A stretch of 64,000 bases of DNA. It comes from a bacterium. GTDB taxonomy: Bacteria > Patescibacteriota > Minisyncoccia > Phycocordibacterales > Phycocordibacteraceae. The notes beneath the pieces are model-generated. The model had not been told where the DNA came from. It saw nothing but the letters and a program-made list of their open reading frames with translations, and ran no database searches. The translations under genes and the position numbers were made by a program. Below are positions 4,446-23,652 of this stretch, piece by piece; the first letter of the stretch is position 1; each line of letters begins with the position of its first letter. The stretch covers positions 14,142 through 78,141 of the forward strand of contig JAJZRL010000003.1 in the NCBI GenBank assembly GCA_021802705.1, read 5' to 3'.

Positions 4446-5102
4446 ATGCGCTTCCTTAAAAACCCTCGTTTCCTTTCCCTCGCGGTCGGTTCCGCCGTCG
4501 CGATGAGCCTTGTCGGAAACATTCCTGTCGCACAAGCGGCAACGCTCAGCACTGTCCAGATACAGGCCATCCTCAATCTCTTGCAGGCATTCAATGCGGA
4601 TGCGACGACGATCGCAAACGTACAAGCCGCGCTCGAAAACACCGCAACGTCCACGCAATCAGTGCTTCCACCGACCGGTTCGAGCTCGGAAGGACAAGCT
4701 TCTTCGTCACCGAGCGGAAGCCCTTGTTTCGTGTTTACGAACACGTTTAGCATCGGCTCTACCGACCGATCAACGGAAGGAGAAGTGTCCCGCCTGCAGG
4801 CCTTCCTCGGGAAATACAAGAGCATCTACCCCGAAGACGCCGTTACCGGCTTCTTCGGATCATCGACCCTGGCAGCCGTACAGAAATGGCAGGCCGAACA
4901 TGGCATCGTTTCATCCGGCAGCCCGGACTCTACCGGATTCGGAACTGTCGGACCATTGACCCGCGAAGACATGAATAAAGAGATGGAAAGAGAATGTGAG
5001 AATGGAGACATGTCCTCGTCTTCCTCCGACTCGACCGCATCCTCTTCTGACTCGTCAACGTCTTCTACGACATCCCAGGATTCGAGCTCGGGAGATAATT
5101 AA
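4446..5102 (+). CDS. Secreted peptidoglycan-binding-domain protein with Ser-rich C-terminus
   Basis: N-terminal signal peptide (AVGSAVAMSLVGNIPVAQA). PG_binding_1-like segment VSRLQAFLGKYKSIYPEDAVTGFFGSSTLAAVQKWQAEHGI. Low-complexity Ser/Thr/Asp tail. Confidence 0.65.
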   Translation: MRFLKNPRFLSLAVGSAVAMSLVGNIPVAQAATLSTVQIQAILNLLQAFNADATTIANVQAALENTATSTQSVLPPTGSSSEGQASSSPSGSPCFVFTNTFSIGSTDRSTEGEVSRLQAFLGKYKSIYPEDAVTGFFGSSTLAAVQKWQAEHGIVSSGSPDSTGFGTVGPLTREDMNKEMERECENGDMSSSSSDSTASSSDSSTSSTTSQDSSSGDN

Positions 5103-5121
5103 TCTTCTCTTCACCCTTAAA

Positions 5122-5158
5122 AACACACTCGCGACTATCGCGAGTGTGTTTTTTATTT
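5122..5158. terminator. Bidirectional rho-independent terminator
   Basis: AACACACTCGCG-ACTAT-CGCGAGTGTGTT, a 12-bp stem flanked by AAAA and TTTTTTATTTT. Serves the convergent genes 4446..5102 (+) and 5153..6745 (-). Confidence 0.8.
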
Positions 5159-6745
5159 TCCCGCCGGGATCGGTAACGTAACGACGAAAGTCGAGCCCTT
5201 CCCTTCCCCTTCGCTTTCAGCGTAGATGGTACCGCCATGAGCGATAACGATGTTCTTCGCGATAAAGAGCCCGTAACCGGTCGAATGGGTGTTTACCCTC
5301 TGCGAGTTTCTGCCATGGCCTCCTTCGGTAAAAAGCCGTTTTTTATCTTCGCCCGTGATGCCGACGCCGGTATCCTTTACGGCAAAGACGAAATTGCCGC
5401 TTTCTCGCTTGAGAGAAACGACGATGGAACCGGAGGGGGTGTAATTGATGGCATTGTCGATGAGATTGCGAAATACGTGATCGCCGATTTCTCCCTTATC
5501 ACCAACGAAAACAAAGGAAGCATCCGAACCGTCTGTAACGAAAGAGAGGTCGAGCCCCTTCTCTTCTGCGCTTGATCTTGCTTTTTCGACTTCTTCTGCC
5601 GCGAGTTGTGCGAGATCGAAAGGTTCTTTCTTATATTCCGTCGTCCCCTTCTTCTGATTCGACGCTTTGAGGATATCGGTAACCGCGACCAAATTCTCGC
5701 GCGATTGAGCGAGAGCGCGATCGACAAAAGGCCTCAATGCGTCCGGAAGAGCGCCGAGATCGCCCTCGGAAAGCGCGGCGAAGGCGCCCGTGTCTTTCGT
5801 GAGGAATCCCTTGACCTCATGCCCGATGAAATGAATGAGGCCTTCCTGCCGCTCGTTTATCTCCTTGAGCTCCTCCGCGAGTTTTTCAAGATTCAACGTA
5901 TCTTGCACGATTCTTACACTTCCAATTAAAACAACAGCAAACGCGGTAATGTTGATAACAATTTCGCTTACACTCGTTGAATATAAAACATTTATGAATG
6001 TAAATACCGTGACCATGAAACCCAAGAAGGCTGTTGTCACGACCTTGAGATTGAAAAGATGGTGGCGGTAGATCGCATACGAGGTTGCAACGACAAATGG
6101 GAGAAGAAATATGGCGCCGAGCGGGATGAAGCTTGAATTGTTAAAAATGACTGGGATAAATAAGTTGAAAATGAGAAGAAGTACGAATGTAATAATCGTT
6201 CCTGTGAGCATCATAGAATATGCTTGGCGTTGTTTTTTTGGCGCTTGAATTGTTTTGCGTATCAGTTTCAAAATTGCAAAAATGACAAGCAGCGAAACCA
6301 GTGTGCCGAAGAACGCGACAGCCGGGCCAGTTTGAACAGCGATAATTTCATTGCCTGTCCCAACAGAAGTCACGCGTTCAAATACATACGGAGTAAGTGT
6401 TAAGACGGATACCACACCGGTAATAGGTATAAGAATATAAGTGTGCCACCAAGGTTGATGGTAGTTGTCATCCGGAAATGCCGATGTTAGATGAAAGAAG
6501 GTAAATGCGTGCCACGTCGCAAAGAAAATCACGCCTCGGAGCAGCAAGAATGCGAAATTCCCATTGGGAAATTGGTAATAAGAATAATTCACTATGCTCC
6601 AAAAAATAGAAATGATTGCGAAGTAAAAAAACGAACGGTTCGTCGTCGAACGAGCATTATTAAAAACAATGACAAAACCAAGAAGACCCATGCTGGCAAC
6701 CGCTATACCGACAAAAAGAAGATCGAGATGAGAAGATAGCTGCAT
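5153..6745 (-). CDS. Sensor histidine kinase with multi-pass (about 7 TM) N-terminal domain
   Basis: ~300 aa of hydrophobic helices, then a HisKA-like H-box (FIGHEVKGF) and HATPase_c motifs (NLIDNAINYT, DTGVGI, GYGLFIAKNIVIAHGG). No response regulator adjacent. Last gene of the ThiF-like/nitroreductase operon (3-nt gaps). Confidence 0.8.
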   Translation of the reverse strand: MQLSSHLDLLFVGIAVASMGLLGFVIVFNNARSTTNRSFFYFAIISIFWSIVNYSYYQFPNGNFAFLLLRGVIFFATWHAFTFFHLTSAFPDDNYHQPWWHTYILIPITGVVSVLTLTPYVFERVTSVGTGNEIIAVQTGPAVAFFGTLVSLLVIFAILKLIRKTIQAPKKQRQAYSMMLTGTIITFVLLLIFNLFIPVIFNNSSFIPLGAIFLLPFVVATSYAIYRHHLFNLKVVTTAFLGFMVTVFTFINVLYSTSVSEIVINITAFAVVLIGSVRIVQDTLNLEKLAEELKEINERQEGLIHFIGHEVKGFLTKDTGAFAALSEGDLGALPDALRPFVDRALAQSRENLVAVTDILKASNQKKGTTEYKKEPFDLAQLAAEEVEKARSSAEEKGLDLSFVTDGSDASFVFVGDKGEIGDHVFRNLIDNAINYTPSGSIVVSLKRESGNFVFAVKDTGVGITGEDKKRLFTEGGHGRNSQRVNTHSTGYGLFIAKNIVIAHGGTIYAESEGEGKGSTFVVTLPIPAGK

Positions 6746-6748
6746 AAA

Positions 6749-7816
6749 TTACACGAATACAATATCAGGTGTACGGTGGCGATATGTTACAGCTGTCGGC
6801 TCATTGCCCACACCAATACGAAAGACAAGGACGGGCTCGTGGTCCTGATTGACGTGATTTTTAATGATCATGTAAGCTGCTCGGACACGCTCCTTTTCAC
6901 TCTCGCTGAAGATAGCACTGTTGTTTTCCATAGAACGTACGAGGAACGTGATGCCAGTCACGATTTGCATTGATAGTCCTCGCGCGGTTGCAAGAAGCCA
7001 TATACGCTCAAGCGCTTTACCTATCTCAAGATAGGTAACCCGATCCGTATGTGGCGCAGTGATTACACCCAATGCAGACGCCGCAGCATTTTGTTGCGCA
7101 TTCGTTTTTGCAACAATTTGTGAAAAGCCTATCTTGGTAAATAGCTTTGCAAAACTCCAATGTTTCAGAAGTCGGAATAATATTTGAGCAGGTGGCGGTA
7201 ATTCCAGCGTCTTGATGTAAAGTCCCTGTTTCCCCGATCGATTCTCTTTTTCGGACCAGAAGATGTTTTCAAAAAAAAGTTTGTGCAACGTGTGATTTCC
7301 AAGCGCTACTTCCTCCATTACCGTAAGCGCTTTTGCTACCTCTGACATCGAATCTCGAGACTCAATGAGCGAGAAATCCAATTCTGTACGCTCTGAGAGA
7401 AACGAATCAAGAATAGCGGTCCTCGTTTCTTTTGATAATGGAACCTTTTTATACGGTTTTCTGTTGGTGTGCCGTTTAAATATCGATTTCTGAAGAAACT
7501 CATCAGTTTTATCCAATCTTCCACCAACCTTAAGCTCCATCACAGCAACACAGGACCCATCTTCATGGAGTACAGTATGCGGCACGTATCCTTGTGCGCG
7601 TGCCTCAAGCTCAGCGTTCTGTAAGGCGGCGCCAAGCGCAATGAGAGTCCCTCCTTCTTTATAATTTAAGATCGGATTGTCTTTTTCGGGAAGGGCGTAA
7701 AATTCAATAGAGCTATCCTGTACGACAAAACGCCACGGCTGAGAATTATCTCCTGAAGGAGCGGCGGCTGCGGCAGTAAGTATCTTTGTTACTTTCTCTT
7801 TGTACGCCGTATCCAT
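6749..7816 (-). CDS. Nitroreductase-superfamily protein with a large internal insertion (two-domain, SagB/McbC- or Acg-like), 355 aa
   Basis: N-terminal hallmark AAAPSGDNSQPWRFVV (SxxNxQPW) and a C-terminal nitroreductase-like segment (ALGVITAPHTDRVTYLEIGKALERIWLLATARGLS), separated by ~150 aa. Translationally packed behind the ThiF-like gene. Confidence 0.65.
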   Translation of the reverse strand: MDTAYKEKVTKILTAAAAAPSGDNSQPWRFVVQDSSIEFYALPEKDNPILNYKEGGTLIALGAALQNAELEARAQGYVPHTVLHEDGSCVAVMELKVGGRLDKTDEFLQKSIFKRHTNRKPYKKVPLSKETRTAILDSFLSERTELDFSLIESRDSMSEVAKALTVMEEVALGNHTLHKLFFENIFWSEKENRSGKQGLYIKTLELPPPAQILFRLLKHWSFAKLFTKIGFSQIVAKTNAQQNAAASALGVITAPHTDRVTYLEIGKALERIWLLATARGLSMQIVTGITFLVRSMENNSAIFSESEKERVRAAYMIIKNHVNQDHEPVLVFRIGVGNEPTAVTYRHRTPDIVFV

Positions 7817-7819
7817 ATT

Positions 7820-8941
7820 CTAGAGACCTATTGCGGCAAAGAAACCCGCGCGCGCTTTTTCGCGAGCAATTTTCACGTGCGGTGCATGATATTCCGGATC
7901 AAGGAGCGCATCGAGACTAATCTCGCATTTCTCTTCGTTCACGATCTGCCCAAGCGCGAGCCGCTTCAAGATATAGGAGATGGCAACGCCCGAAAGCGTC
8001 GCGGCATCGCCGAGCTGCGGCCAGGAATAAATCTCGCGGCCGACCTGGAGGAGCGAGCTCATCATGCGTTCGGTCACAAGCTCGGGACCGGCGATCTTCG
8101 TCGCCAGTTTGGGCAAGTCAGACGGTATAAACGATTTGAACATCTCTATGTTTACATCGCCGATGACGCCATTGAAAAGCTGTTTCGTCTTGACCGTATC
8201 AAAGCGTTCCACCTCAACGATAATGTTGTCGCCGTTATCGGTCGCCATAACGACCGGAATGCCGCGCTCGCGAGCCGCGAGCCGCAACCGTATCTTCATC
8301 TCAAGATTGTCAGTCTCCTCAACGAGGACATCAGCATCCTCGAGGAAGGCACTCATGGTTTCTTCCGTAACGCCTGAATCGAATGTTTCGATCTCGGCAT
8401 AGGGATTCAGCTGATAAATATACTCACGCACCAGATCGGTCTTTTTCCGGCCGAGATCGAGAAAGTCAAAGCGAATGCGGTTTAAGTTTGAGGGTGAGAC
8501 CTCGTCCGGATCGGCAATTTTTATATGACGCGCGCCGCCCATGAGCGCGAACGTAAGGGCGCCATGACTGCCAACGCTTAGCCCTGCGTATGCGACCGTT
8601 AGGCCATACAGTTTCTTCTGTTCTTCTTTCGTAATAATGTTTCGGTTACGCGCGGTGCGTATTTCCTGATGCTCGTCGTGTGGCAGATAATGCACGAGGA
8701 TCTTGTTCCACGGAAAGAAAAACCATTCTCCCACTTCTTCAATCGGCTTCTCTCCGCAATACTCTTTCGTGAACGCTTCGACTTCAATCGCATGATCTTT
8801 GATGAATTTAAATCGCGGATTACGGATGAGAAACAAATCCTCCAAAAGGAGATTGTAGCGATCAATTACTTTTGACGGTTGAAGACGGTCGCGAAAGGCT
8901 GAAAACGATTCCTTTAATCGGTCAAGTCGTTCTGGCTGCAT
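7820..8941 (-). CDS. ThiF/MoeB (E1-like) family adenylyltransferase-like protein with N-terminal extension
   Basis: Nucleotide-binding region GLSVGSHGALTFALMGGARHIKIADPDEVSPSNLNRI (the D-x-D-x-V-x-x-SNLNR motif of the E1 superfamily) after a ~120-aa N-terminal region. No ThiS/MoaD-like or YcaO gene nearby. Confidence 0.65.
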   Translation of the reverse strand: MQPERLDRLKESFSAFRDRLQPSKVIDRYNLLLEDLFLIRNPRFKFIKDHAIEVEAFTKEYCGEKPIEEVGEWFFFPWNKILVHYLPHDEHQEIRTARNRNIITKEEQKKLYGLTVAYAGLSVGSHGALTFALMGGARHIKIADPDEVSPSNLNRIRFDFLDLGRKKTDLVREYIYQLNPYAEIETFDSGVTEETMSAFLEDADVLVEETDNLEMKIRLRLAARERGIPVVMATDNGDNIIVEVERFDTVKTKQLFNGVIGDVNIEMFKSFIPSDLPKLATKIAGPELVTERMMSSLLQVGREIYSWPQLGDAATLSGVAISYILKRLALGQIVNEEKCEISLDALLDPEYHAPHVKIAREKARAGFFAAIGL

Positions 8942-9020: not shown

Positions 9021-9054
9021 CACGGATAAAGAAACGCCCGACGAATCGGGCGTT
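9021..9054 (-). terminator. Terminator of the ClpP-like gene
   Basis: AACGCCCGA-CGAA-TCGGGCGTT stem followed on the minus strand by TCTTTAT. It separates 9073..9615 from the ThiF-like operon. Confidence 0.65.
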
Positions 9055-9072: not shown

Positions 9073-9615
9073 TTATGATTTTGGCAACGAGACTATCTCA
9101 TGTGCGAAACCTAACTTGATCGCCTGATCCGCATCGAGAGTCCTCTCGTTGCGAAGAATCAGCTTCGCCTCCTTCTTGCTCGTCTTGCCGCCAGTCCTTT
9201 CTTCAATGATTCGGAAATATTTCCCTTCCTCAACCAGAAGTTCTTTCTGCATCCGTTCGGCATCGAGAGTGTCGATCTTGACTTTTTCGTCAAAACTCTG
9301 ACTCATATGGTGAAACCATAGAGTCGTTTCTGGCGTGATCACTCGATGATCGCCCATTAGATACAACAGAGGCGCGATAGAGGCAAGCCTGCCGAGTGCT
9401 ACTGTTTGAAGCTTTGGGCGAAGAATGTGGCGAACAAGTTCATATATGGCAAAGGCAGGACTTACCTTGCCGCCACCCGAGCATATAAACAAAGAGATCC
9501 AGTTTCCGCGATTTTCAAGCATCGATTTGCTGAGATCCCCGCCGAGTTTCTCCATACTCCTTCCGTTGACTTCATCAAAGAAGGTTGTTATTTGCGACGG
9601 ACTGCATTGGTGCAT
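9073..9615 (-). CDS. ClpP-like (S14 family) serine peptidase homologue, stand-alone, 180 aa
   Basis: ICSGGGKVSPAFAIYELV resembles ClpP INSPGG-SVTAGLAIYDTM. Ser in GRLASIA, His in WFHHM and a candidate Asp are retained. AAGGAG RBS upstream. No clpX nearby. Confidence 0.55.
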   Translation of the reverse strand: MHQCSPSQITTFFDEVNGRSMEKLGGDLSKSMLENRGNWISLFICSGGGKVSPAFAIYELVRHILRPKLQTVALGRLASIAPLLYLMGDHRVITPETTLWFHHMSQSFDEKVKIDTLDAERMQKELLVEEGKYFRIIEERTGGKTSKKEAKLILRNERTLDADQAIKLGFAHEIVSLPKS

Positions 9616-9652
9616 GATTTCTCCTTAATCCGTGAGTGAAAGAACTGGGGAA

Positions 9653-9681
9653 AATATACATTAGATCTTATAATTTGTCCA
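9653..9681 (-). promoter_or_regulatory. Sigma-70-like promoter (TGGACA-17 nt-TATATT) for the ClpP-like gene
   Basis: On the minus strand, ggtaTGGACAaattataagatctaatgTATATTttcc lies ~40 nt upstream of the AAGGAG RBS. The -35 box is 9 bp from the IS30 terminal repeat. Confidence 0.45.
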
Positions 9682-9689
9682 TACCTTGT

Positions 9690-10647
9690 GGTGAATTCAA
9701 CCCGCTAAAGCACCACCCCAAGCTTCTGATGGCGTCTTCCAGCCGAGGCGTTTCCTCGGCCTCGTATTCAAAGCATACCCCACGACAGCGATTTCCTCCT
9801 CGGACACGAGATCGAAGTCAGTGCCCTTGGGAAAGAACCTGTGTACCAAACCGTTCGTATTCTCGTTCGTCCCACGCTCAAAGGAGGAATACGGGTGGGC
9901 GAAGTACACCTTTGCGTTCGTGAGCGCCTGAAGCTCCCGCCAGTATTGGTTCTCGCTTCCATTGTCGAGGGGTCAGTGTGTGCGCGTACGCTCTTGAGAC
10001 GTCGCGCGACCACGGCGGTTGTCGCTTCTGCCGTCTTCGCGGGCAGTTTCGACAGGAACAGGAGCCCGCTTCGGCGGTCGACGAGCGAATTGAGCCCTGG
10101 AGCGTGGTTCTTGCCTTCGATCGAGTCGCCCTCCCGGTCGCCGAGGCGGGTACGTTTCTCGACGACCGTCGGTCGTGTATCGATGCTCGGTCCTTTCGGG
10201 CGCAAAACACGGCGCGCCTTGCGACCGCCCATCCTCTGCCGGCGTGTATCTGCGCGTACACGAATTGGCATATGGCCTCGTGCGATATCGGCTCGGGCGC
10301 GGTGTTCGCGATCTGCTCGGGCGACCAGCCCGCCTTGAGTCGCTCCACGACGTATACCCTCAGCTCGGGGTACTTCAGGCGCTCTTCCGCGTTCCCGGGA
10401 TTTCCGCTTCGCAAGCGCCCGCTTGTGTGCGAGTCGCGGGGTGTACACCCGCCGTTCGGGAGGCAAGTTCTTGTTGATCTCCCGAACGATCGATGAGTGC
10501 GCCCGCCCCAGCCGCTTCACAATCGACCGTACCGATTCTTTTTCCCACAAGCCGCACTGTATTTCCTCCCGTTCCTCGACGCTCAACTGCCGGTATGCCA
10601 TATCCGCTCATGTTAGCGGAGTGGTGCTTTAGCGGGTTGAATTCACC
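9690..10647 (-). mobile_element. IS30-family insertion sequence (958 bp) with perfect 27-bp terminal inverted repeats and a disrupted transposase
   Basis: GGTGAATTCAACCCGCTAAAGCACCAC at 9690..9716 and its exact reverse complement at 10621..10647. IS30-transposase pieces lie in three frames between them. No clear target-site duplication. Confidence 0.8.
9697..10601 (-). pseudogene. IS30-family transposase, frameshifted or degraded
   Basis: N-terminal HTH (MAYRQLSVEEREEIQ...IVKRLGRAHSSIVREINKN) in ORF 9768..10601. Middle (LKAGWSPEQIANTA...HEAICQFVYAQIHAG) in ORF 9878..10414. C-terminus (ENTNGLVHRFFPKGTDFDLV...LNTRPRKRLGWKTPSEAWG) in ORF 9697..9909. No single intact reading frame; the DDE region is garbled. 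Confidence 0.75.
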
Positions 10648-10737
10648 TGAGGCGCGTTTGCCCGCAAGGAGATTTTATGGTAGGATTTCAGTGCACGATA
10701 CACATCGTGCCTCTTACTGCAAATGGAGAAGATACCG

Positions 10738-11949
10738 ATGAGCGAAACCCATAGATTGTCCGCTTTAAAAAGAGCGGAGCTTGAAGTAAATCGCGAGAGA
10801 ACGAGCGAGGGCTTTCTGAGATTTGAGGTCTCTTCTCCGGAAGCCATAGAGCGTGCATTGTCGGTGAGTGATCTCACCGCCGAAGATGCGCCTGAGCACA
10901 TTGTTAACATCATTAAGGATGAGGTAGTAAAAAACCTGCCCAGGTTGGGAATGGGTGAAGTGCGTATCGTCAGAGGCAATCCAATAGTTTCTGTCGAGGA
11001 TAACTTCGACAAGTTGTTATTCCCCGCGGACAACGCCGGCAGATCGTCTACTTACACTCGATATGTGGATGAGGACCATATCTTACGAACACACACTTCT
11101 GCACCTGTACCGGAAACCCTCAAGAGCTTTTATCAAGAATTCAAGGGCGATATTCCCGATACGGTTTTCGTTTTCCCGGGCTTAGTCTATAGAAGGGATG
11201 TCATTGACCGGAAACATCTTGATGTCTTTCATCAGCTGGATATTTGGACTTTACGGAAAAATGGTTCGAGAGAACCGGTCACGAGCGAAGATTTGTTAAG
11301 CTTAGTCAACATCATCTTCGAATCGGCCTTGCCTGGGAAGCGGCCTATCGTCTACCCCGCCGTTCATCCGTATACTCTCAAAGGAATCGAGGTATATGCG
11401 GAGTTCAACGGGGCGGAGCTTGAAGTTCTTGAAGCAGGACTGGCTCATCCCGAAGTGTTGCGCGGGGCAGGTTTTGATCCAGCTTTATATTCAGGACTTG
11501 CCTTGGGGATGGGCCTTGACCGGCTGGCGATGTCACTGAAAGGAATGTCTGACATTAGGTACCTGCGTTCTAAAGATCCGAGAATCTCCGCGCAGTTGTT
11601 GAATAGCGAAAAATTCAAGGAAGTGTCCAACCAGCCTCCCATTGCTCGTGATATGTCCTATTGTGTTCCAGAAAACTACACAGAGGAGGATATTTGCGAG
11701 GAAATAAAGGATGCGTTTGGAAAAGATGCTTACTTGGTCGAGGATGTAAAGATCGCAGCGAGGACGAAGTACAAAGACCTGCCCCAAGTTGCCAAAAATC
11801 GACTTGGCGCACTTGAAGGACAGGATAATGTTCTCGTTAAGATAACTCTCAGGCATCCCGACAAAACGCTGACGAGAAAAGAGGCTGACGGATTATATGA
11901 CCAGGCCTACCCAAAATTAAATAAGGGAACTAGGGGATACGTTCGCTAG
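10738..11949 (+). CDS. Monomeric phenylalanyl-tRNA-synthetase-like protein: PheS-type class II catalytic core fused to C-terminal FDX-ACB anticodon-binding domain (mitochondrial FARS2-like architecture)
   Basis: PheS motif 1 region NFDKLLFPADNAGRSSTYTRYVDEDHILRTHTSAPV. Motif 2 FPGLVYRRDVIDRKHLDVFHQLD. Motif 3 GLALGMGLDRLAM. C-terminal FDX-ACB-like IARDMSYCVPE...VLVKITLRHPDKTLTRKEADGLYD. GGAGAAG RBS before the second ATG (MSETHRL). Local GC (~48 %) is lower than the surrounding core. Confidence 0.7.
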   Translation: MSETHRLSALKRAELEVNRERTSEGFLRFEVSSPEAIERALSVSDLTAEDAPEHIVNIIKDEVVKNLPRLGMGEVRIVRGNPIVSVEDNFDKLLFPADNAGRSSTYTRYVDEDHILRTHTSAPVPETLKSFYQEFKGDIPDTVFVFPGLVYRRDVIDRKHLDVFHQLDIWTLRKNGSREPVTSEDLLSLVNIIFESALPGKRPIVYPAVHPYTLKGIEVYAEFNGAELEVLEAGLAHPEVLRGAGFDPALYSGLALGMGLDRLAMSLKGMSDIRYLRSKDPRISAQLLNSEKFKEVSNQPPIARDMSYCVPENYTEEDICEEIKDAFGKDAYLVEDVKIAARTKYKDLPQVAKNRLGALEGQDNVLVKITLRHPDKTLTRKEADGLYDQAYPKLNKGTRGYVR

Positions 11950-11999
11950 CGCGAACGACGTTGTTACCCTAAGGGAGTGGCAACATGAGCCGCTCCTTT

Positions 12000-13247
12000 T
12001 TATTTTTCTTCACTATCAAAATGCTTTTTTAAGAAAGCCTCTACCTCGAGTGTTTTTATTGGATCCGCGTATTCGCTTACATATAAATCTGACTCTTGTC
12101 GATGCCTAAGCTCAGACCAGTTTTCTTTTTCTCCAAAAATTCTTCGTGCCCCTTGCATGAGTGATAGCCCGAGATTCGGGTAGACATCGTCCACTCCGTG
12201 CGCGAGGTAATACATGAGGTTGCGTTGGAAAGTGCTTTGTTCCTCCGCCCTTTCATCGTAGTTTGACAAACTATATTTCGGGTAACAGGCGTCAAGAAGC
12301 GTTTTGGGGATATCCCACAATGGCATAAGGAGCTTTGTTCCTCCAAAGCTGCGTGTAGGAAATGAGAGCGGTTTTTGCCCATTTATAAGTGAGAACAAAA
12401 GATCGGCGAGAAGATCCTCTCGGTTAAACCCGAGTAGATATTCTGTTGCCCCAATCTCCCTGCATAATCTGCGCGCTACTAATGAAATGAGATATGTGCC
12501 AAAGAAGTGGTTCGTGTTGCTTCCGAATTTCTCACAATACTCTTCGTAAAACTCGCGAGAAGATCGCTTCATGCGAAGCAATCCCTTGAGATCTGTCTCG
12601 CTAAAAATCTTGTGCTCAAGACCATAAGTTTGACAGAGAAGAGCGGCTCGTTCAGCAGCTGAGGACGGCCAAATAGGATCAAAAATGATCGTAAAAAAGG
12701 TAATATTTACGTCCCTAATCTCTGAAAAATCTTTCAATGCCTGCGCCAGAGTATTGCTATCTCCGCCGCCTGAGATACCAACCACGAGTTTATTGCTTCT
12801 ACTCTCTCGTGTCATAAAGGATTGAACCTTTTCTTTTATGATCTCTCTAGCAGATTCCGGATTAAATTCCTGGATGGTCTCGACGCAACCCTTCTCGCCA
12901 AGAGTAACGCTAGGGATGGCGATAACGGAATTCTTCACATTTTTATATATGATCTTTTGCGGCACAATGCTCCGAAGGTCGGTGTTGCGAATGCAACGCA
13001 GTTCTATCTCTTGATCTTCCGGGATGGTGGATATTATGGTCGTTAGCGGAACTGGAGTTACATTTTTTTCTTTTTTCAAATAGCCCTGAAATAAACTGGG
13101 TGGAAGATGTTTGGCTCGCAAAATCTCTTGCAACGTCACGGCATCAGAGGATCGAATATTTATTTCCTCGGAAACTGTCTTTATAATAATACTTCTGACC
13201 ATGGCGAAGAAATTCCAACGGAAGTTGGCAATTTTATCGAGTCTCAA
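12000..13247 (-). CDS. PP-loop superfamily ATPase (N-type ATP pyrophosphatase, TilS/ThiI/TtcA-like) with uncharacterised ~150-aa N-terminal domain
   Basis: SGGxDS P-loop in KLVVGISGGGDSNTLAQAL at residue ~155. The ORF track start is a TTG; the first ATG (MVRSIIIKTV) gives 12000..13202. Very AT-rich (~40 % GC) relative to the core. Confidence 0.65.
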   Translation of the reverse strand: MRLDKIANFRWNFFAMVRSIIIKTVSEEINIRSSDAVTLQEILRAKHLPPSLFQGYLKKEKNVTPVPLTTIISTIPEDQEIELRCIRNTDLRSIVPQKIIYKNVKNSVIAIPSVTLGEKGCVETIQEFNPESAREIIKEKVQSFMTRESRSNKLVVGISGGGDSNTLAQALKDFSEIRDVNITFFTIIFDPIWPSSAAERAALLCQTYGLEHKIFSETDLKGLLRMKRSSREFYEEYCEKFGSNTNHFFGTYLISLVARRLCREIGATEYLLGFNREDLLADLLFSLINGQKPLSFPTRSFGGTKLLMPLWDIPKTLLDACYPKYSLSNYDERAEEQSTFQRNLMYYLAHGVDDVYPNLGLSLMQGARRIFGEKENWSELRHRQESDLYVSEYADPIKTLEVEAFLKKHFDSEEK

Positions 13248-13533: not shown

Positions 13534-15102
13534 CTATGACGGACGCGCCACCCACGGCTGTTTGATTCCCGGCTTAAAATAAAGGGGGTCCTCGTATGGC
13601 CAAAAAACGAGTCTCGGCTCCGCACGTTTCCCGAGAAAGTCAGAAAGTTCTCTAAATTCTGAATTTTTTTCGCGCAGATTCTTGATGATTTCTGCAAGAA
13701 GCTCCGACGCAAGAACCTTTGCAATATCCTTCTTCGGTTTCTGTTCAAGATTGATCTCTAGGTATTGGTCGTGGTTTTCATCGTACTTCGTGATGAGCGT
13801 GAGCTTACCGGTCAGGCAGTCGACAAAGCTCTTGTTAAGCAAAACTTCCTTGATTGTCTCGGGATACACCTGGAGGCCGTAAATCGTTGTAGCGAGATCG
13901 ATGCGTTCGAAAACATATACGAATGGCAGCTTGTACACGGAATCACTGATGCCGGCAGCTTGCGCTTCTTTCAAGAGATCGACGCCGTGCGTTTTGTATC
14001 GCTCGATAAGTTCGTTAAATGTGTAGACTCCCCCATAGTCTCCGATGGAGTAGCGGAGAAGCGGCAGTGCACTGTCTCCTGACACGAGGATTTCTCCGTT
14101 GGGCGCTTCAAACGAAACGAATTGCGGTATGTACTGCGCAAACGTCGGCGTCTTTGTGATACCACCGAATACATCGGCAAACAGTTTTTTGTCAGACAGC
14201 GCAAGGCGCCGCGCGAGAATGGAGAAAGGGGTCTCGAACGCCATGGTGCCGATATCGGCGCTCCCATAGATATTAATCGCATCGGTAATAGGATTTTTTA
14301 TGCCAACGCGCTTCGCGACGTAATCACGAAAATGCTCCGTAAACGCCTCGGCCGCAAAAAGGAGGAGTGTGCGATTCTTATCAAAACGAATACCCTGCGC
14401 GAGCGCTTCGTCAATAACATCCTTGAGGAAAGGGGGATACCCTGCGAGAATGATTTGTTTGTATTGTGGCGCGATATTTTCGAGTGCTTTCAAGATTTCC
14501 GCTTTATTTATACCGGGCGTGAGAATGGAGACTGGGTATCCGCGACGGCCCATGAGTTCGAAGGCCTGATAGGTAATGACGCCACCGATCCATACGCCCA
14601 TGCCAAAACAAACAATGACTAACGTCGACTCATTCTTCTTCAGGGAGCTTGAGCGGAAAATGAGTTCGTGGATAAGTGACGACTGTTCGTCGATGCTGGG
14701 TGAACGGGCGAAGTATGTCGGCTTCCCCGTCGAGCCGGAGGTTGCGGTAAGGACATACGGTGATTGAACAGAGCCATGCCACAAGAGATCGGGAAACGGG
14801 TTCTTCCAAAGATAGTTCTTCTTTGTTATGACCGGCACAGAAGCAAGATCTTTCGTCGTACGAACGGCGTCATGACGAAGATGATTTGCACGAAGGAAAT
14901 CCCGATAGGCCGGCACATCGAGCGCCATGCGCTTAAAAAGTGAGTGGGCATGCGTCTTTTCAGCGCGAGACCAGTCGACGCCCTGAAAAGCACGCAAGGT
15001 ATTGAAAAAATTAGCTGGGGAGGAAAAGCCCGACTTGAAAGCCGTCGCCGACGTTTTATGGGACGTCGTTTTAACTGAACTCATGAAATTATATAATACC
15101 AT
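13534..15102 (-). CDS. Adenylate-forming enzyme of the phenylacetate-CoA ligase (PaaK)/coenzyme F390 synthetase family
   Basis: ANL-superfamily phosphate-binding loop LTATSGSTGKPTYF with PaaK-type N-terminal region (...DLASVPVITKKNYL...), 522 aa. Alternative start at the second ATG (MSSVKTTS, 15084). No SD upstream; an A/T-rich promoter-like region at 15103..15150. Confidence 0.7.
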   Translation of the reverse strand: MVLYNFMSSVKTTSHKTSATAFKSGFSSPANFFNTLRAFQGVDWSRAEKTHAHSLFKRMALDVPAYRDFLRANHLRHDAVRTTKDLASVPVITKKNYLWKNPFPDLLWHGSVQSPYVLTATSGSTGKPTYFARSPSIDEQSSLIHELIFRSSSLKKNESTLVIVCFGMGVWIGGVITYQAFELMGRRGYPVSILTPGINKAEILKALENIAPQYKQIILAGYPPFLKDVIDEALAQGIRFDKNRTLLLFAAEAFTEHFRDYVAKRVGIKNPITDAINIYGSADIGTMAFETPFSILARRLALSDKKLFADVFGGITKTPTFAQYIPQFVSFEAPNGEILVSGDSALPLLRYSIGDYGGVYTFNELIERYKTHGVDLLKEAQAAGISDSVYKLPFVYVFERIDLATTIYGLQVYPETIKEVLLNKSFVDCLTGKLTLITKYDENHDQYLEINLEQKPKKDIAKVLASELLAEIIKNLREKNSEFRELSDFLGKRAEPRLVFWPYEDPLYFKPGIKQPWVARPS

Positions 15103-22479: not shown

Positions 22480-23643
22480 ATGAGCTTCCTTTTCTTCGTC
22501 AACATCCTTGCACTGCTCTTTTCCTTCTTCGTCATCGGAGCTCTTTTGGGCGCCGCTTTCTCAAAACCTTTCCGGAAAAAGCTGCTCGGGCGCCTGCAAG
22601 AGTACCGTTTCCTCCTTACCCGATCCGTCCGCAACCCGATCCTTATGCCGGGCGCGACGCCATGGACCGCCGAGGCGGTCTTGAATCCGGCGGCTATCGT
22701 TCTCGGAGGCAGGACCCATCTCGTCTATCGTGCCATCGGCATGGACGGCGTATCGCGGCTCGGCTATGCCTCAAGCGGGGAAGGATTCATCTTCGATGAT
22801 CGGCCTCCCTACCCTGTCTATGTCGTTCAGAATCCGCGGAATAGCAAAGGCGGGGTGCGCCGGTATTCCCCCGTCCTTTATCCTTCAGGCGGAAGCTGGG
22901 GCGGCTGCGAAGATCCGCGCATGGTCGCTATAGACGGACAGATTTACGTCACCTACAACGCATTTGACGGATGGGACTTCATCCGCGTCGCTTTCACCTC
23001 CATTTCCGAGGAGGACTTCCTCGCAAAGCGTTTTTCGAGATGGAGCGCGCCAAAACTCCTTTCGCCGGAAGGCGAACGTCATAAGAACTGGGTCTTATTC
23101 CCTGAAAAAATAAACGGAAAGTTCGCCATTCTTCATAACCTGCACACCACTGACCCGAACCATGTTTGCGTCGAATATATCGACGACCTTGCAGCATACG
23201 ATCCGAAACGGAACCCCATCAAGAGCGCCGATCCGGCGGCGACTCCTCCCCGCGCGATCGCGTGGCACCACCGCATGCGCAGCGCCGGACCGCCGCCGGT
23301 AAAGACAGAGTACGGATGGCTCGTCCTCTATCATGCGACAAGCGAGAATGAGGGTCATCGTTACAAGCTCGGTGCGATGCTCCTCGACCTTCAAGACCCG
23401 ACAAAAGTGCGGGCGCGCGCGCAAGCTCCGATCCTCGCTCCGGACGAGCATTACGAGAACAACGGCAAACCGGGTATCGTCTATGCCTGTGGCGCTGTCG
23501 TACGAGACGATACCCTTTTCGTTTATTACGGAGGGGCCGATAAGGTCGTCTGCGTCGCGACTTCGCCGCTCAAGACGTTCCTCGATGCGCTCCTCGAAGA
23601 AGACAGTCCTTCGCTTTCCCCTCAGGCAGCTCGAATCAGCTGA
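22480..23643 (+). CDS. GH130-family (DUF377) glycoside hydrolase/phosphorylase-like protein with N-terminal TM helix
   Basis: GCEDPRMV motif, beta-propeller repeats, and LYHATSENEGHRYKLGAMLLDLQDP typical of GH130. Confidence 0.7.
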   Translation: MSFLFFVNILALLFSFFVIGALLGAAFSKPFRKKLLGRLQEYRFLLTRSVRNPILMPGATPWTAEAVLNPAAIVLGGRTHLVYRAIGMDGVSRLGYASSGEGFIFDDRPPYPVYVVQNPRNSKGGVRRYSPVLYPSGGSWGGCEDPRMVAIDGQIYVTYNAFDGWDFIRVAFTSISEEDFLAKRFSRWSAPKLLSPEGERHKNWVLFPEKINGKFAILHNLHTTDPNHVCVEYIDDLAAYDPKRNPIKSADPAATPPRAIAWHHRMRSAGPPPVKTEYGWLVLYHATSENEGHRYKLGAMLLDLQDPTKVRARAQAPILAPDEHYENNGKPGIVYACGAVVRDDTLFVYYGGADKVVCVATSPLKTFLDALLEEDSPSLSPQAARIS

Positions 23644-23652
23644 TCACGCTAT

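What the first reader, a model, noticed from the sequence alone, without database searches (positions are those of the whole stretch)
5153..8941. E1-like (ThiF family) plus insertion-bearing nitroreductase plus 7-TM orphan histidine kinase in one tightly packed operon
Three genes with 3-nt spacers. E1-like and SagB/McbC-type nitroreductase-like partners are the dehydrogenase and scaffold pair of TOMM/azoline RiPP pathways. No YcaO, precursor peptide or ThiS/MoaD gene is present. Instead the operon ends in a membrane sensor kinase with no response regulator. A stand-alone ClpP-like peptidase lies immediately upstream behind its own terminator. This could be a minimal peptide- or cofactor-modification module coupled to signalling.
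Basis: partly seen in the sequence, partly recalled or inferred. Interest (0 to 1): 0.6.

Follow-up and report, generated by a model that had tools for sequence, protein, structure and literature searches.

The report
Oxazolone-like synthetase operon with sensor kinase
The three tightly packed genes are real and belong to a four-to-five-gene module conserved across many ultra-small Patescibacteria; its two enzymes resemble the recently discovered makers of oxazolone lipids, not peptide-antibiotic enzymes, and they are hard-wired to a membrane sensor kinase, which hints that these poorly understood molecules act as signals.

Summary
Three minus-strand genes encode a ThiF-like protein (7820-8941), an Acg-fold nitroreductase (6749-7816) and a polytopic histidine kinase (5153-6745), separated by exactly 3 nt.

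The TOMM/RiPP reading is not supported. No YcaO, SagB-type or ocin_ThiF_like match was found. There is no room for a precursor gene and no ThiS-like partner.

The two enzymes match, colinearly, the two halves of the Rv1355c (TrzS) family. [quoted passage not shown] One Doudnabacteria orthologue is fused in the same way.

In 80 Patescibacteria genomes the module keeps one order: PaaK-family ligase, ThiF, oxidase, kinase. Often an aminotransferase or an amino-acid dehydrogenase sits just upstream. Some lineages add CheY-like receivers, a methyltransferase-like gene or an ABC exporter.

No N-acyl amino acid synthase is present, so the ligase probably replaces it. In this window the ligase (13534-15102) is split from ThiF by a lineage-specific insertion that carries the ClpP-like gene.

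Best reading: a new variant of oxazolone or N-acyl-dehydroamino-acid biosynthesis, coupled to two-component signalling. The chemistry and the kinase's ligand are inferred.

The parts
13534..15102 (-). PaaK-family (ANL superfamily) adenylate-forming ligase ('X'). It is the conserved first enzyme of the module and is displaced here by an insertion.
   Evidence: It is 59% identical to the gene directly upstream of ThiF in L001. A homologue was present in 64/64 loci with enough upstream DNA. NCBIfam PaaK gives E 3.5e-14, far below its cut-off. The AF2 model has pLDDT 84.9, and its top Foldseek hits are PaaK1/2, BT_0428, NatL2, AjiA1 and ClxA. The ANL-type motifs TSTSGSTGKP, YGSAD, ER.D and PGIK are invariant or nearly so in A2.
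7820..8941 (-). ThiF-like adenylating cyclase, homologous to the N-terminal half of Rv1355c/TrzS.
   Evidence: It scores 258 bits against NF005901 positions 36-347/722. It is 36% identical over 287 aa (E 4e-56) to an annotated Rv1355c family protein. Residues R95, R98, D144, D146, N152, R155, K167 and D211 are invariant in A1. The protein has only two Cys and no CxxC motif (read from the sequence).
6749..7816 (-). Flavin-dependent oxidase of the nitroreductase superfamily: a single-chain Acg-like fold, homologous to the C-terminal half of Rv1355c/TrzS.
   Evidence: It scores 168 bits against NF005901 positions 373-716/722, 177 bits against PRK14851 and 139 bits against the Acg family (cut-off 199). 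It is 25% identical over 281 aa (E 7e-19) to an Rv1355c family protein. The AF2 model has pLDDT 93, and its top hit is 2ymv at E 7e-16 with TM 0.74/0.80.
5153..6745 (-). Polytopic membrane histidine kinase: the HisKA_7TM region, two further hydrophobic segments, then DHp and the catalytic domain.
   Evidence: Pfam domains are. The H-box residue H309 and the N, G1, F and G2 box residues are at least 90% conserved in 61 orthologues. A homologue was present in 57/63 loci with enough downstream DNA.
5119..5153 (.). Palindromic, bidirectional terminator-like hairpin that closes the operon.
   Evidence: It has a 16-bp stem flanked by an A-tract and a T-tract.
9033..9054 (-). Terminator-like hairpin after the ClpP-like gene, upstream of ThiF.
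   Evidence: It has a 9-bp stem with 6 GC pairs and a T-rich tail.
9073..13247 (.). Lineage-specific inserted block that separates the ligase from ThiF and is not part of the module. It holds a ClpP-like gene (9073-9615, -), an IS30-like remnant (9768-10601, -), SrmL, the 'PheS-related mystery ligase' (10723-11949, +), and a PP-loop ATPase-like gene (12000-13247, -).
   Evidence: None of these genes has a homologue in the 80 related loci. In most relatives, including ones with 83-88% identical ThiF, the ligase abuts ThiF. GC rises to 0.58 over the IS remnant. The remnant matches HTH_38 only. SrmL scores 393 bits against a cut-off of 300.

Best explanation
**Proposal.** The three genes are the core of a conserved Patescibacteria module that makes an amino-acid-derived small molecule of the oxazolone or N-acyl-dehydroamino-acid class. 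The module is genetically coupled to a two-component signalling pathway.

**Shown here.**
- The ThiF-like and nitroreductase-fold proteins are homologous, colinearly, to the two halves of the fused oxazolone synthetase TrzS (Rv1355c).
- They are always preceded by a PaaK-family adenylating ligase.
- They are usually followed by this polytopic histidine kinase.

**Inferred pathway.**
1. Where present, the upstream aminotransferase or Leu/Phe/Val-type dehydrogenase supplies the amino acid or the 2-oxo-acid-derived partner.
2. The PaaK-family ligase activates a free carboxylic acid as an acyl-AMP and passes it to the amino group of an amino acid. This makes an N-acyl amino acid without acyl-CoA and replaces the N-acyl amino acid synthase of all known pathways.
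3. The ThiF-like enzyme adenylates the amino-acid carboxylate, so that the amide oxygen closes the oxazol-5-one ring.
4. The FMN oxidase desaturates C-alpha/C-beta.
5. The product, or a related ligand, is sensed within the membrane bundle of the kinase. The kinase signals to stand-alone CheY-like receivers, which are encoded next to the module in some lineages and not within this 64-kb window.
For: **Homology to TrzS.**
- The two proteins score 258 and 168 bits against the N and C halves of NF005901.
- The fused orthologue in L078 aligns end-to-end (24-713/722) at 452 bits.
- Identity to an annotated Rv1355c family protein is 36% for the ThiF half and 25% for the oxidase half.
- The oxidase model matches MsAcg 2ymv. 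The TrzS authors report the same closest solved structure for its oxidase domain.

**Biochemistry of the known relatives, from papers.** These are TrzAS (PMC12856293), TyzACB (PMC10404671), OxzAB and the Stieleria clusters of NAS, methyltransferase, ThiF and nitroreductase.

**Module conservation.**
- 195 species genomes hold a relative, and the best 80 loci were analysed.
- The ligase is present in 64/64 loci.
- The nitroreductase is present in 72/76 by blastp, plus two divergent copies and one fused copy.
- The kinase is present in 57/63.
- The order is the same in most loci, on one strand, and flanking genes differ.
- Called genes overlap by 4 bp in relatives. The spacers here are 3 nt.

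**Amino-acid link.** An aminotransferase or an ELFV dehydrogenase, never both, occupies the slot directly upstream of the ligase in 33/57 loci.

**The ligase.**
- Its fold and motifs are PaaK-type.
- Its structural neighbours include NatL2, AjiA1 and ClxA, PaaK-family ligases crystallised with aromatic-acid substrates or their adenylates (entry titles).
- My own knowledge, not tested here, is that these enzymes form ester or amide bonds without CoA in benzoxazole pathways.
- An ANL-type GH3-like enzyme is implicated in ornithine-lipid formation in planctomycetes, where OlsB-type acyltransferases normally act (title and abstract of PMC12493201).

**Signalling.**
- The kinase catalytic boxes are conserved.
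- Receiver genes cluster beside the module: 18 of 24 lie within 2.5 kb, against 37% expected, in 11 loci.
- An ABC exporter follows the kinase in 6 loci.
- In L041 an FtsX-type ABC pair stands where the kinase would be.
Against: - No product is known. Everything downstream of homology is inference.
- Neither protein reaches the curated cut-off of the Rv1355c family, and identity to it is only 25-36%. The substrate could differ.
- The amide-forming role of the ligase is unproven. PaaK-type enzymes normally make CoA thioesters, and an aminotransferase plus a PaaK-like ligase could instead reflect aryl-acid or amino-acid salvage.
- Known oxidases of this type need O2. By my own knowledge, many Patescibacteria live in anoxic groundwater.
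- In this window the module looks partly eroded. The ligase lies 4.6 kb away, and there is no aminotransferase, dehydrogenase, receiver or exporter within 64 kb.
- Nothing shows that the kinase binds the product. Co-transcription with a regulator of the operon would look the same.
- The 80 loci are phylogenetically related, so the counts are not independent.
Confidence: 0.5

Rival explanations
1. The chemistry is the same (N-acyl-dehydroamino acid or oxazolone), but the product is a membrane, stress or antimicrobial lipid. The kinase only regulates the operon in response to some other cue and does not sense the product.
For: In Mycobacterium, oxazolones are found mainly in cells and are linked to stress phenotypes. 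N-acyl tyrosine derivatives of Stieleria are antimicrobial. Kinases are often co-transcribed with the genes they control. There is no receiver in this window.
Against: The kinase has a sensor made almost entirely of membrane helices, with conserved polar residues such as N53, Y54, Y57 and R70. By my own knowledge, this design is typical of receptors for lipophilic autoinducers. The kinase is retained next to the enzymes in 57/63 loci, and exporters and receivers join the same operon in some lineages.
Confidence: 0.25
2. This is the first reader's model: a minimal TOMM/azoline-type RiPP or peptide-modification module in which the E1-like protein docks a peptide and the nitroreductase oxidises azolines.
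For: E1-like and nitroreductase-fold proteins do cooperate in TOMM pathways (own knowledge; review). In one relative (L010) an MvdD-type ATP-grasp gene and an S9 peptidase gene lie between the ligase and ThiF.
Against: There is no YcaO in the window. No SagB or ocin_ThiF_like family appears even at E <= 10. No McbC- or ThcOx-like fold match appears in the top 50. The 3-nt spacers and overlapping genes leave no room for a precursor. No small conserved neighbour gene exists. The ThiF keeps its adenylation residues. The characterised relatives act on small molecules.
Confidence: 0.04
3. An ordinary MoeB/ThiF-type E1 activates a ThiS/MoaD/ubiquitin-like protein for sulfur transfer or conjugation, next to an unrelated Acg-type flavoprotein.
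For: There are generic ThiF-fold hits to ThiF, MoeB, UbaA and defence E1-E2 models.
Against: All those scores lie far below their cut-offs, at 20-82 bits against 150-750. The protein has no CxxC zinc site and no conserved Cys. No beta-grasp partner gene is in the module. The N-terminal extension and C-terminal region specific to the Rv1355c family are shared. The fusion with the oxidase in L078 argues for one pathway.
Confidence: 0.04
4. The ligase and the aminotransferase or dehydrogenase form an aryl-acid or amino-acid salvage route (for example phenylacetate to phenylalanine). ThiF and the oxidase carry out an unrelated, still unknown modification such as a cofactor or nucleoside cyclisation.
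For: BT_0428-type PaaK-like ligases are among the best structural matches. TcdA-type ThiF enzymes cyclise a tRNA nucleoside to an oxazolone.
Against: Salvage would need an indolepyruvate- or 2-oxoacid-ferredoxin oxidoreductase, which is absent from the module. The ligase is present in 64/64 loci and overlaps or abuts ThiF in most of them. The TcdA model scores only 27 bits against a cut-off of 304.
Confidence: 0.1

Closest known systems
TrzA/TrzS (Rv1356c/Rv1355c), the N-acyl tryptazolone pathway of Mycobacterium and Rhodococcus
   Same: It has a ThiF-like ATP-dependent cyclase and an Acg-fold FMN oxidase in the same order, and shares the N-terminal extension and C-terminal region of the ThiF part. 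It is the best curated family match for both window proteins. A Doudnabacteria orthologue is fused like TrzS. It also sits near signalling genes (c-di-GMP enzymes in Mtb; a GGDEF gene in L089).
   Different: The window genes are split, and their scores fall below the family cut-off (258+168 bits, or 452 for the fused orthologue, against 476). Identity is 25-36%. There is no TrzA-type N-acyltransferase; a PaaK-family ligase takes its place. A 7TM histidine kinase sits in the same operon. The host is a Patescibacteria organism, not an actinobacterium.
TyzA/TyzB/TyzC (Rv2336-2338c) and the Stieleria/Thalassotalea NAS-ThiF-nitroreductase clusters
   Same: They have the split architecture, with separate ThiF and oxidase genes in an operon with short or overlapping junctions. 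An optional methyltransferase is present, as in 9 of the Patescibacteria loci (weak methyltransferase hits).
   Different: Those clusters always contain an N-acyl amino acid synthase that uses acyl-CoA or acyl-ACP. None is found here. They carry no kinase, aminotransferase or dehydrogenase.
OxzA/OxzB oxazolone synthetase of Pseudoalteromonas rubra
   Same: Its domain pair and proposed chemistry are the same: ThiF adenylation and cyclisation plus nitroreductase-type desaturation.
   Different: It is a fused enzyme found in Proteobacteria and partnered with the N-acyltransferase OxzA.
TOMM cyclodehydratase/dehydrogenase (ocin_ThiF_like or C protein, YcaO, SagB/McbC)
   Same: It pairs an E1-like fold with a nitroreductase fold for heterocycle formation and oxidation.
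   Different: Here there is no YcaO, no precursor and no SagB-type signature. The E1-like protein is an intact adenylating enzyme, and the oxidase is of the Acg/FDO type.
Autoinducer synthase and polytopic receptor-kinase operons (LuxM/LuxN, CqsA/CqsS, AgrBDCA); comparison from my own knowledge
   Same: In these operons the genes that make a small amphipathic signal are co-transcribed with a kinase whose sensor is a bundle of membrane helices. Sometimes an exporter and a response regulator are included.
   Different: No sequence relationship was tested. The ligand of this kinase is unknown, and there is no receiver in this window.
PaaK-family AMP-ligases (PaaK1/2, BT_0428, NatL2, AjiA1, ClxA)
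   Same: They share the fold (Foldseek E 1e-21 to 1e-13) and the adenylation motifs.
   Different: The window protein is about 90 residues longer and only 13-18% identical. It scores 52 bits against the PaaK equivalog cut-off of 646. Its acceptor (CoA or amine) is unknown.

Membership tests
Rv1355c/TrzS family (NCBIfam NF005901) | Score at or above the curated cut-off of 476 bits. | tested here: not met
   The window ThiF scores 258 bits and the nitroreductase 168 bits, 426 in total. The fused orthologue in L078 scores 452 bits.
Rv1355c/TrzS family (NCBIfam NF005901) | Colinear ThiF-like N-terminal half and flavin-dependent-oxidase C-terminal half. | tested here: met
   Model positions 36-347 are matched by the ThiF ORF and positions 373-716 by the next ORF. 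The L078 fusion aligns over positions 24-713/722.
Oxazolone synthetase systems (OxzAB, TyzACB, TrzAS) | Intact ThiF adenylation site, including the motif Asp mutated in TrzS (D217A). | tested here: met
   R95, R98, D144, D146, N152, R155, K167 and D211 are invariant in 12 orthologues. D211 aligns with the Asp of the ECD motif in an Rv1355c family protein. Equating D211 with TrzS D217 rests on motif position, not on a direct alignment.
Oxazolone synthetase systems (OxzAB, TyzACB, TrzAS) | Single-chain Acg-like FMN oxidase (FDO). | tested here: met
   The AF2 model has pLDDT 93. Its top hit is 2ymv at E 7e-16 with TM 0.74/0.80, and the next hits are at E >= 7e-6. The APSGDNSQPW and RHTNR motifs are conserved. 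FMN binding itself was not tested.
Oxazolone synthetase systems (OxzAB, TyzACB, TrzAS) | Adjacent N-acyl amino acid synthase (OxzA, TyzA, TrzA or NasY). | tested here: not met
   No acyltransferase Pfam hit occurred in the window ORFs scanned. No such recurrent family flanks the 80 loci. A PaaK-family ligase holds the slot in 64/64 loci.
Oxazolone synthetase systems (OxzAB, TyzACB, TrzAS) | The product is an N-acyl oxazolone or dehydro-N-acyl amino acid. | not testable with these tools
   This needs expression and LC-MS.
TOMM / azoline RiPP pathway | YcaO cyclodehydratase present. | tested here: not met
   No YcaO Pfam hit occurred in any scanned window ORF, including every ORF of at least 300 aa in 1-20 kb. 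The rest of the genome was not searched.
TOMM / azoline RiPP pathway | SagB-type dehydrogenase and ocin_ThiF_like signatures. | tested here: not met
   Neither family is listed even at E <= 10. I did not verify that both models are in the library copy. Independently, no McbC or ThcOx fold match appears in the top 50.
TOMM / azoline RiPP pathway | A precursor peptide gene in the cluster. | tested here: not met
   The 3-nt spacers and 4-bp overlaps in relatives leave no room. No conserved small neighbour gene exists.
MoeB/ThiF sulfur-carrier adenylyltransferases | Equivalog-level score, CxxC zinc site and a ThiS/MoaD partner. | tested here: not met
   Scores are 44-79 bits against cut-offs of 152-449. 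The protein has only C62 and C339, with no CxxC, and neither Cys is conserved. There is no beta-grasp gene in the module.
Acg family FMN-binding oxidoreductase (NF047509, FDO-B type) | Score at or above 199 bits. | tested here: not met
   The window protein scores 139 bits, below its scores against the ThiF-fused families (168-177 bits). In L063 the corresponding gene does pass, at 224 bits.
Two-component sensor histidine kinase (HisKA_7TM type) | H-box His and N, G1, F and G2 boxes, plus the N-terminal 7TM region. | tested here: met
   Pfam PF16927 scores 33.1 against a cut-off of 28.6, and HATPase_c scores 83 bits. H309, N427, D430, N431, D458, G460, G462, F472, G490, G492 and L493 are at least 90% conserved.
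Two-component sensor histidine kinase (HisKA_7TM type) | A cognate response regulator. | tested here: inconclusive
   None is present in the 64-kb window. Stand-alone receivers lie within 2.5 kb of the module in 11 related loci. The rest of this genome was not available.
PaaK-family ANL adenylate-forming enzymes | Two-domain PaaK fold with the P-loop-like motif, hinge and C-terminal catalytic Lys. | tested here: met
   Foldseek gives E 1e-21 to PaaK1/2, and the motifs are conserved. The PaaK equivalog score of 52 bits, against 646, shows it is not phenylacetate-CoA ligase itself.

The most novel reading that the evidence does not exclude
The module is a self-contained chemical signalling circuit of Patescibacteria. 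A CoA-independent synthase line (aminotransferase or dehydrogenase, PaaK-type amide ligase, ThiF cyclase, flavin oxidase) makes an oxazolone-type autoinducer. The signal is exported, by the ABC transporter in some lineages, and read by the co-transcribed polytopic receptor kinase, which phosphorylates CheY-like receivers. This would be the first physiological role assigned to bacterial oxazolones and the first defined small-molecule signalling system of these episymbiotic bacteria.
Probability: 0.22. Interest if true: 0.85.

Novelty: new variant of a known kind. Interest (0 to 1): 0.62.

Why it matters
Oxazolone and N-acyl-dehydroamino-acid pathways were discovered only in 2021-2025. Their authors state that the physiological role is the main open question and suggest signalling.

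Here homologues of the two key enzymes are locked into one operon with a membrane receptor kinase. In sister lineages the operon also holds receivers and an exporter. This is the kind of genomic evidence that turns the signalling hypothesis into an experiment with four or five genes.

It also points to a new way of making the N-acyl amino acid: an ATP-dependent PaaK-type ligase instead of an acyl-CoA transferase. That would suit organisms with almost no lipid or CoA metabolism.

Finally, it shows that genome-reduced Patescibacteria keep a dedicated specialised-metabolite module in at least about 200 species. This bears on how they communicate with hosts or with each other.

Tried and rejected
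- **RiPP/TOMM membership.** NCBIfam scans at E <= 0.01 and E <= 10 gave no SagB or ocin_ThiF_like family. The fold search gave no McbC- or ThcOx-like match. Pfam on all large window ORFs gave no YcaO.
- **Anti-phage defence.** PADLOC gave only generic E1 hits of 16-40 bits, and nothing for the other proteins.
- **ClpP-like gene as a partner.** It has no homologue in the 80 related loci and sits in a window-specific insert beside an IS30 remnant.
- **An N-acyltransferase in the flanks.** All-versus-all clustering of the flanking ORFs found none. It found the aminotransferase and dehydrogenase instead.
- **The hypothetical gene beside a Rhodococcus Rv1355c family gene (L089).** It has no Pfam hit, so it could not serve as a TrzA probe.
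- **Literature.** Searches for SrmL and for oxazolones in Candidate Phyla Radiation bacteria found nothing relevant. A search for quorum sensing in Patescibacteria found nothing about this module.
- **Direct comparison with TrzS of M. smegmatis, TyzB/TyzC and OxzB.** This was not possible because their sequences were not retrievable. An annotated Rv1355c family protein from a Rhodococcus plasmid was used instead.
- **Streptomyces plasmid ThiF relatives.** They are 32-37% identical and sit next to a GNAT or a KAS III gene, with no oxidase annotated. I did not pursue them.

Full report
**Observation**

The window carries three minus-strand ORFs: 7820-8941 (373 aa), 6749-7816 (355 aa) and 5153-6745 (530 aa). 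The junctions read TAG-AAT-ATG and TAA-TTT-ATG, so both spacers are exactly 3 nt.

Pfam assigns the three proteins as follows:
- ThiF: 80 bits.
- Nitroreductase: 49 bits.
- Kinase: HisKA_7TM at 33 bits (cut-off 28.6) plus HATPase_c at 83 bits.

Upstream lies a 180-aa ClpP-like ORF (9073-9615), followed by a terminator-like hairpin at 9054-9033. A 16-bp palindromic hairpin at 5119-5153 closes the kinase gene. The description is therefore accurate.

Names attached to close homologues, and the loci recovered, place the organism in Patescibacteria (Paceibacterota or Kaiserbacteria-like).

**What the two enzymes are**

NCBIfam gave the decisive lead.
- The ThiF ORF matches positions 36-347 of the 722-position model NF005901, 'Rv1355c family protein', at 258 bits.
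- The next ORF matches positions 373-716 of the same model at 168 bits. It also scores 177 bits against the C-terminal half of PRK14851 and 139 bits against the Acg family.
- MoeB, ThiF, UbaA and TcdA models score only 27-82 bits, against cut-offs of 150-650.

The pair is therefore a split version of a known fusion protein. Further results support this:
- A Doudnabacteria orthologue in the same module (L078) is a single 738-aa protein. It aligns end-to-end with NF005901 at 452 bits, just under the cut-off of 476.
- Against an annotated Rv1355c family protein from a Rhodococcus plasmid, the window ThiF is 36% identical over 287 aa (E 4e-56). The match includes family-specific motifs outside the Rossmann core. 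The nitroreductase is 25% identical over 281 aa (E 7e-19).
- An AlphaFold model of the nitroreductase (pLDDT 93) matches MsAcg (2ymv) at E 7e-16 with TM 0.74/0.80. Every other solved structure is at least ten orders of magnitude worse, and no McbC- or ThcOx-type protein is in the top 50.

**What that family does**

Rv1355c is TrzS. [quoted passage not shown] The steps are ATP-dependent ring closure followed by O2-dependent desaturation. The substrate is made by the acyl-CoA N-acyltransferase TrzA (PMC12856293).

Related systems:
- TyzB (ThiF), TyzC (oxidase) and TyzA form the split version (PMC10404671).
- OxzA/OxzB is the founding example.
- Planctomycete clusters combine an N-acyl amino acid synthase, a methyltransferase, a ThiF and a nitroreductase to make N-acyl dehydrotyrosines.

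However, the relatives act on small molecules, not peptides.

The specific RiPP tests all failed:
- No SagB-type or ocin_ThiF_like family appears, even at E <= 10.
- No YcaO, ThiS or MoaD hit occurs in the window ORFs scanned.
- There is no space for a precursor gene.
- The adenylation site is intact rather than a degenerate docking scaffold. R95, R98, D144, D146, N152, R155, K167 and D211 are invariant.

**The real extent of the unit**

I looked up the contigs that encode three distant ThiF homologues. I then scanned one genome per species. That scan found 195 genomes with a relative, and I analysed the best 80 loci, in which ThiF identity ranges from 89% to 44%.

| Gene | Presence in loci with enough flanking DNA |
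|---|---|
| ~500-aa upstream gene ('X') | 64/64 |
| Nitroreductase | 72/76 by blastp, plus divergent copies in L063 and L079 and the L078 fusion |
| 7TM kinase | 57/63 |

In all but a few loci the order is X, ThiF, nitroreductase, kinase on one strand. In L049 and L084, X lies downstream of ThiF. Genes are often called with 4-bp overlaps, and the flanking genes differ between lineages.

The window's copy of X is 13534-15102, which is 59% identical to the copy in L001. Here it is separated from ThiF by about 4.6 kb. This insert holds:
- a PP-loop ATPase-like gene;
- SrmL, the 'PheS-related mystery ligase';
- an IS30-like remnant with raised GC;
- the ClpP-like gene.

None of these has a homologue in the other 80 loci. 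The ClpP-like gene is therefore a passenger of a lineage-specific insertion and not a partner. Other genomes carry different insertions at the same junction.

**The fourth enzyme**

X has no Pfam hit, but it is a PaaK-family adenylate-forming enzyme.
- NCBIfam PaaK gives E 3.5e-14.
- A PDB profile search hits PaaK at E 2e-12.
- The AlphaFold model has pLDDT 84.9. Its top Foldseek hits are PaaK1/2 (E 1e-21) and BT_0428, followed by NatL2, AjiA1 and ClxA.
- The ANL-type motifs, including the C-terminal lysine, are invariant or nearly so across 27 homologues.

No N-acyl amino acid synthase occurs in the window or recurs in the flanks. I therefore infer that X replaces it, making the N-acyl amino acid by acyl-adenylate chemistry.

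For precedent, the NatL2, AjiA1 and ClxA entries are PaaK-family ligases bound to aromatic acids or their adenylates. That they form ester or amide bonds without CoA is my own knowledge and was not tested here. A GH3-like ANL enzyme is also implicated in ornithine-lipid formation in planctomycetes (abstract).

**Accessory genes in relatives**

Clustering all flanking ORFs gave these results:
- The slot directly upstream of X, on the same strand and usually within about 40 nt, holds a class I/II aminotransferase in 15 loci or a Leu/Phe/Val-type (ELFV) amino-acid dehydrogenase in 18 loci. Together that is 33 of 57 loci, and the two never occur together.
- Two non-homologous enzymes that share one chemistry (2-oxo acid to amino acid and back) occupy the same slot. 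This is strong evidence that the pathway works on amino acids.
- A methyltransferase-like gene sits between the oxidase and the kinase in eight loci, and after the oxidase in L041. Its Pfam hits are below threshold.
- An ABC exporter directly follows the kinase in six loci.
- In L041 an FtsX-type ABC pair stands where the kinase would be.

The window itself has none of these accessory genes.

**The kinase**

In 61 orthologues the H-box histidine and the N, G1, F and G2 boxes are at least 90% conserved, so the kinase is likely active. The sensor is the 7TM region plus two more hydrophobic segments. It has no sizeable extracytoplasmic domain, and several polar residues within the bundle are conserved.

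No receiver is encoded in the 64-kb window. In 11 related loci, however, one to three stand-alone CheY-like receivers lie within 2.5 kb of the module. In Wolfebacteria- and Liptonbacteria-type genomes they sit directly upstream of X on the same strand. Of 24 receiver ORFs in all flanks, 18 lie within 2.5 kb, against 37% expected (p about 2e-4, not corrected for relatedness).

The link between the enzymes and two-component signalling is thus a conserved feature and not an accident of this genome.

**Mechanism**

*Shown:* homology of the pair to oxazolone synthetases; an intact adenylation site; the Acg-type flavoprotein fold; the PaaK-type ligase; conserved operon linkage with a competent kinase.

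*Inferred:*
1. The ligase makes an N-acyl amino acid.
2. ThiF adenylates its carboxylate and the ring closes.
3. The oxidase desaturates it.
4. The product is sensed by the kinase.

I put about 0.5 on the overall statement. That splits into roughly 0.6 for the biosynthetic part and 0.25-0.3 for the product being the kinase's ligand.

The main rival keeps the chemistry but treats the kinase as an ordinary regulator. The RiPP and MoeB-type readings are each below 0.05.

Weak points:
- Identity to characterised enzymes is low, and scores fall below the family cut-off.
- The ligase acceptor is unknown.
- Known oxidases of this type depend on O2.
- In this genome the module is partly dispersed.

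**Novelty**

The enzyme pair belongs to a kind that is already known. Three things are new:
- the host group;
- the replacement of the N-acyltransferase by a PaaK-type ligase, with an aminotransferase or dehydrogenase feeding it;
- the fixed coupling to a polytopic histidine kinase, with receivers and an exporter in some lineages.

Full-text searches for these combinations found no description of the module. I classify it as a new variant of a known kind.

Noticed in passing
window 10723-11949 (+): This ORF is a full-length member of NCBIfam NF051887, the 'PheS-related mystery ligase SrmL' (393 bits against a cut-off of 300). It lies inside the inserted block. Homologues about 40% identical occur as isolated, unannotated genes among mobile-element genes on Glutamicibacter and Azotobacter plasmids. 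I found no literature on it.
   Followed up: partly
window 12000-13247 (-): This 415-aa ORF has only weak PP-loop ATPase similarity (TilS N-domain and TtcA, E about 1e-6) and an unassigned N-terminal region of about 140 aa. It sits next to SrmL and converges on it. Whether the two work together is unknown.
   Followed up: no
window 9768-10601 (-), with overlapping frames 9878-10414 and 9841-10496: This is a degraded IS30-like element. Only the HTH_38 domain is recognisable, the reading frame is broken, and GC is 0.58 against about 0.48-0.50 in the flanks. It marks the insertion that separates the ligase from ThiF.
   Followed up: partly
window 9073-9615 (-): The short ClpP-like protein also resembles ClpP-related phage head-maturation proteases (NF045542, E 3e-10). 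It has no homologue next to the module in the 80 related genomes.
   Followed up: partly
L078 9992-12205; L063 11117-12130: Within the same conserved module, one Doudnabacteria genome has the ThiF and oxidase genes fused. Another genome has swapped the oxidase for a true Acg-family (FDO-B type) protein that passes its cut-off (224 bits against 199).
   Followed up: yes
L005/L036 (between ThiF and the oxidase); L010 5552-9992; L008, L026, L039 and L048 (between the ligase and ThiF): The junctions inside the module accept foreign genes. A GmrSD-type nuclease gene sits between ThiF and the oxidase in L005/L036. In L010, an S9 prolyl-oligopeptidase gene, an MvdD-type ATP-grasp gene and a further 219-aa ORF (not scanned) sit between the ligase and ThiF. 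Other, different inserts occur elsewhere. The ligase-ThiF junction looks like an insertion hot spot.
   Followed up: partly
L010 3099-3890; L018 4384-5226: The gene directly upstream of the ligase in these two close relatives reads like an ApbE-type flavin transferase. I judged this from its motifs by eye and did not test it with an HMM.
   Followed up: no
window 4446-5102 (+): This convergent neighbour of the kinase appears to be a secreted protein. It has a peptidoglycan-binding domain (PG_binding_1) and a long Ser/Thr/Asp-rich tail.
   Followed up: no
L087 and L088 (Streptomyces plasmids): Stand-alone ThiF relatives share the N-terminal extension and are 32-37% identical to the Patescibacteria type. 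They sit next to a GNAT gene (L087) or a KAS III gene (L088), with no oxidase annotated. This may be another acyl-amino-acid cyclase arrangement.
   Followed up: no
window 22480-25563 (+): Two adjacent GH130 (mannoside phosphorylase family) genes lie here. The second is a 636-aa protein whose GH130 match has two stretches. This is unrelated to the finding.
   Followed up: no
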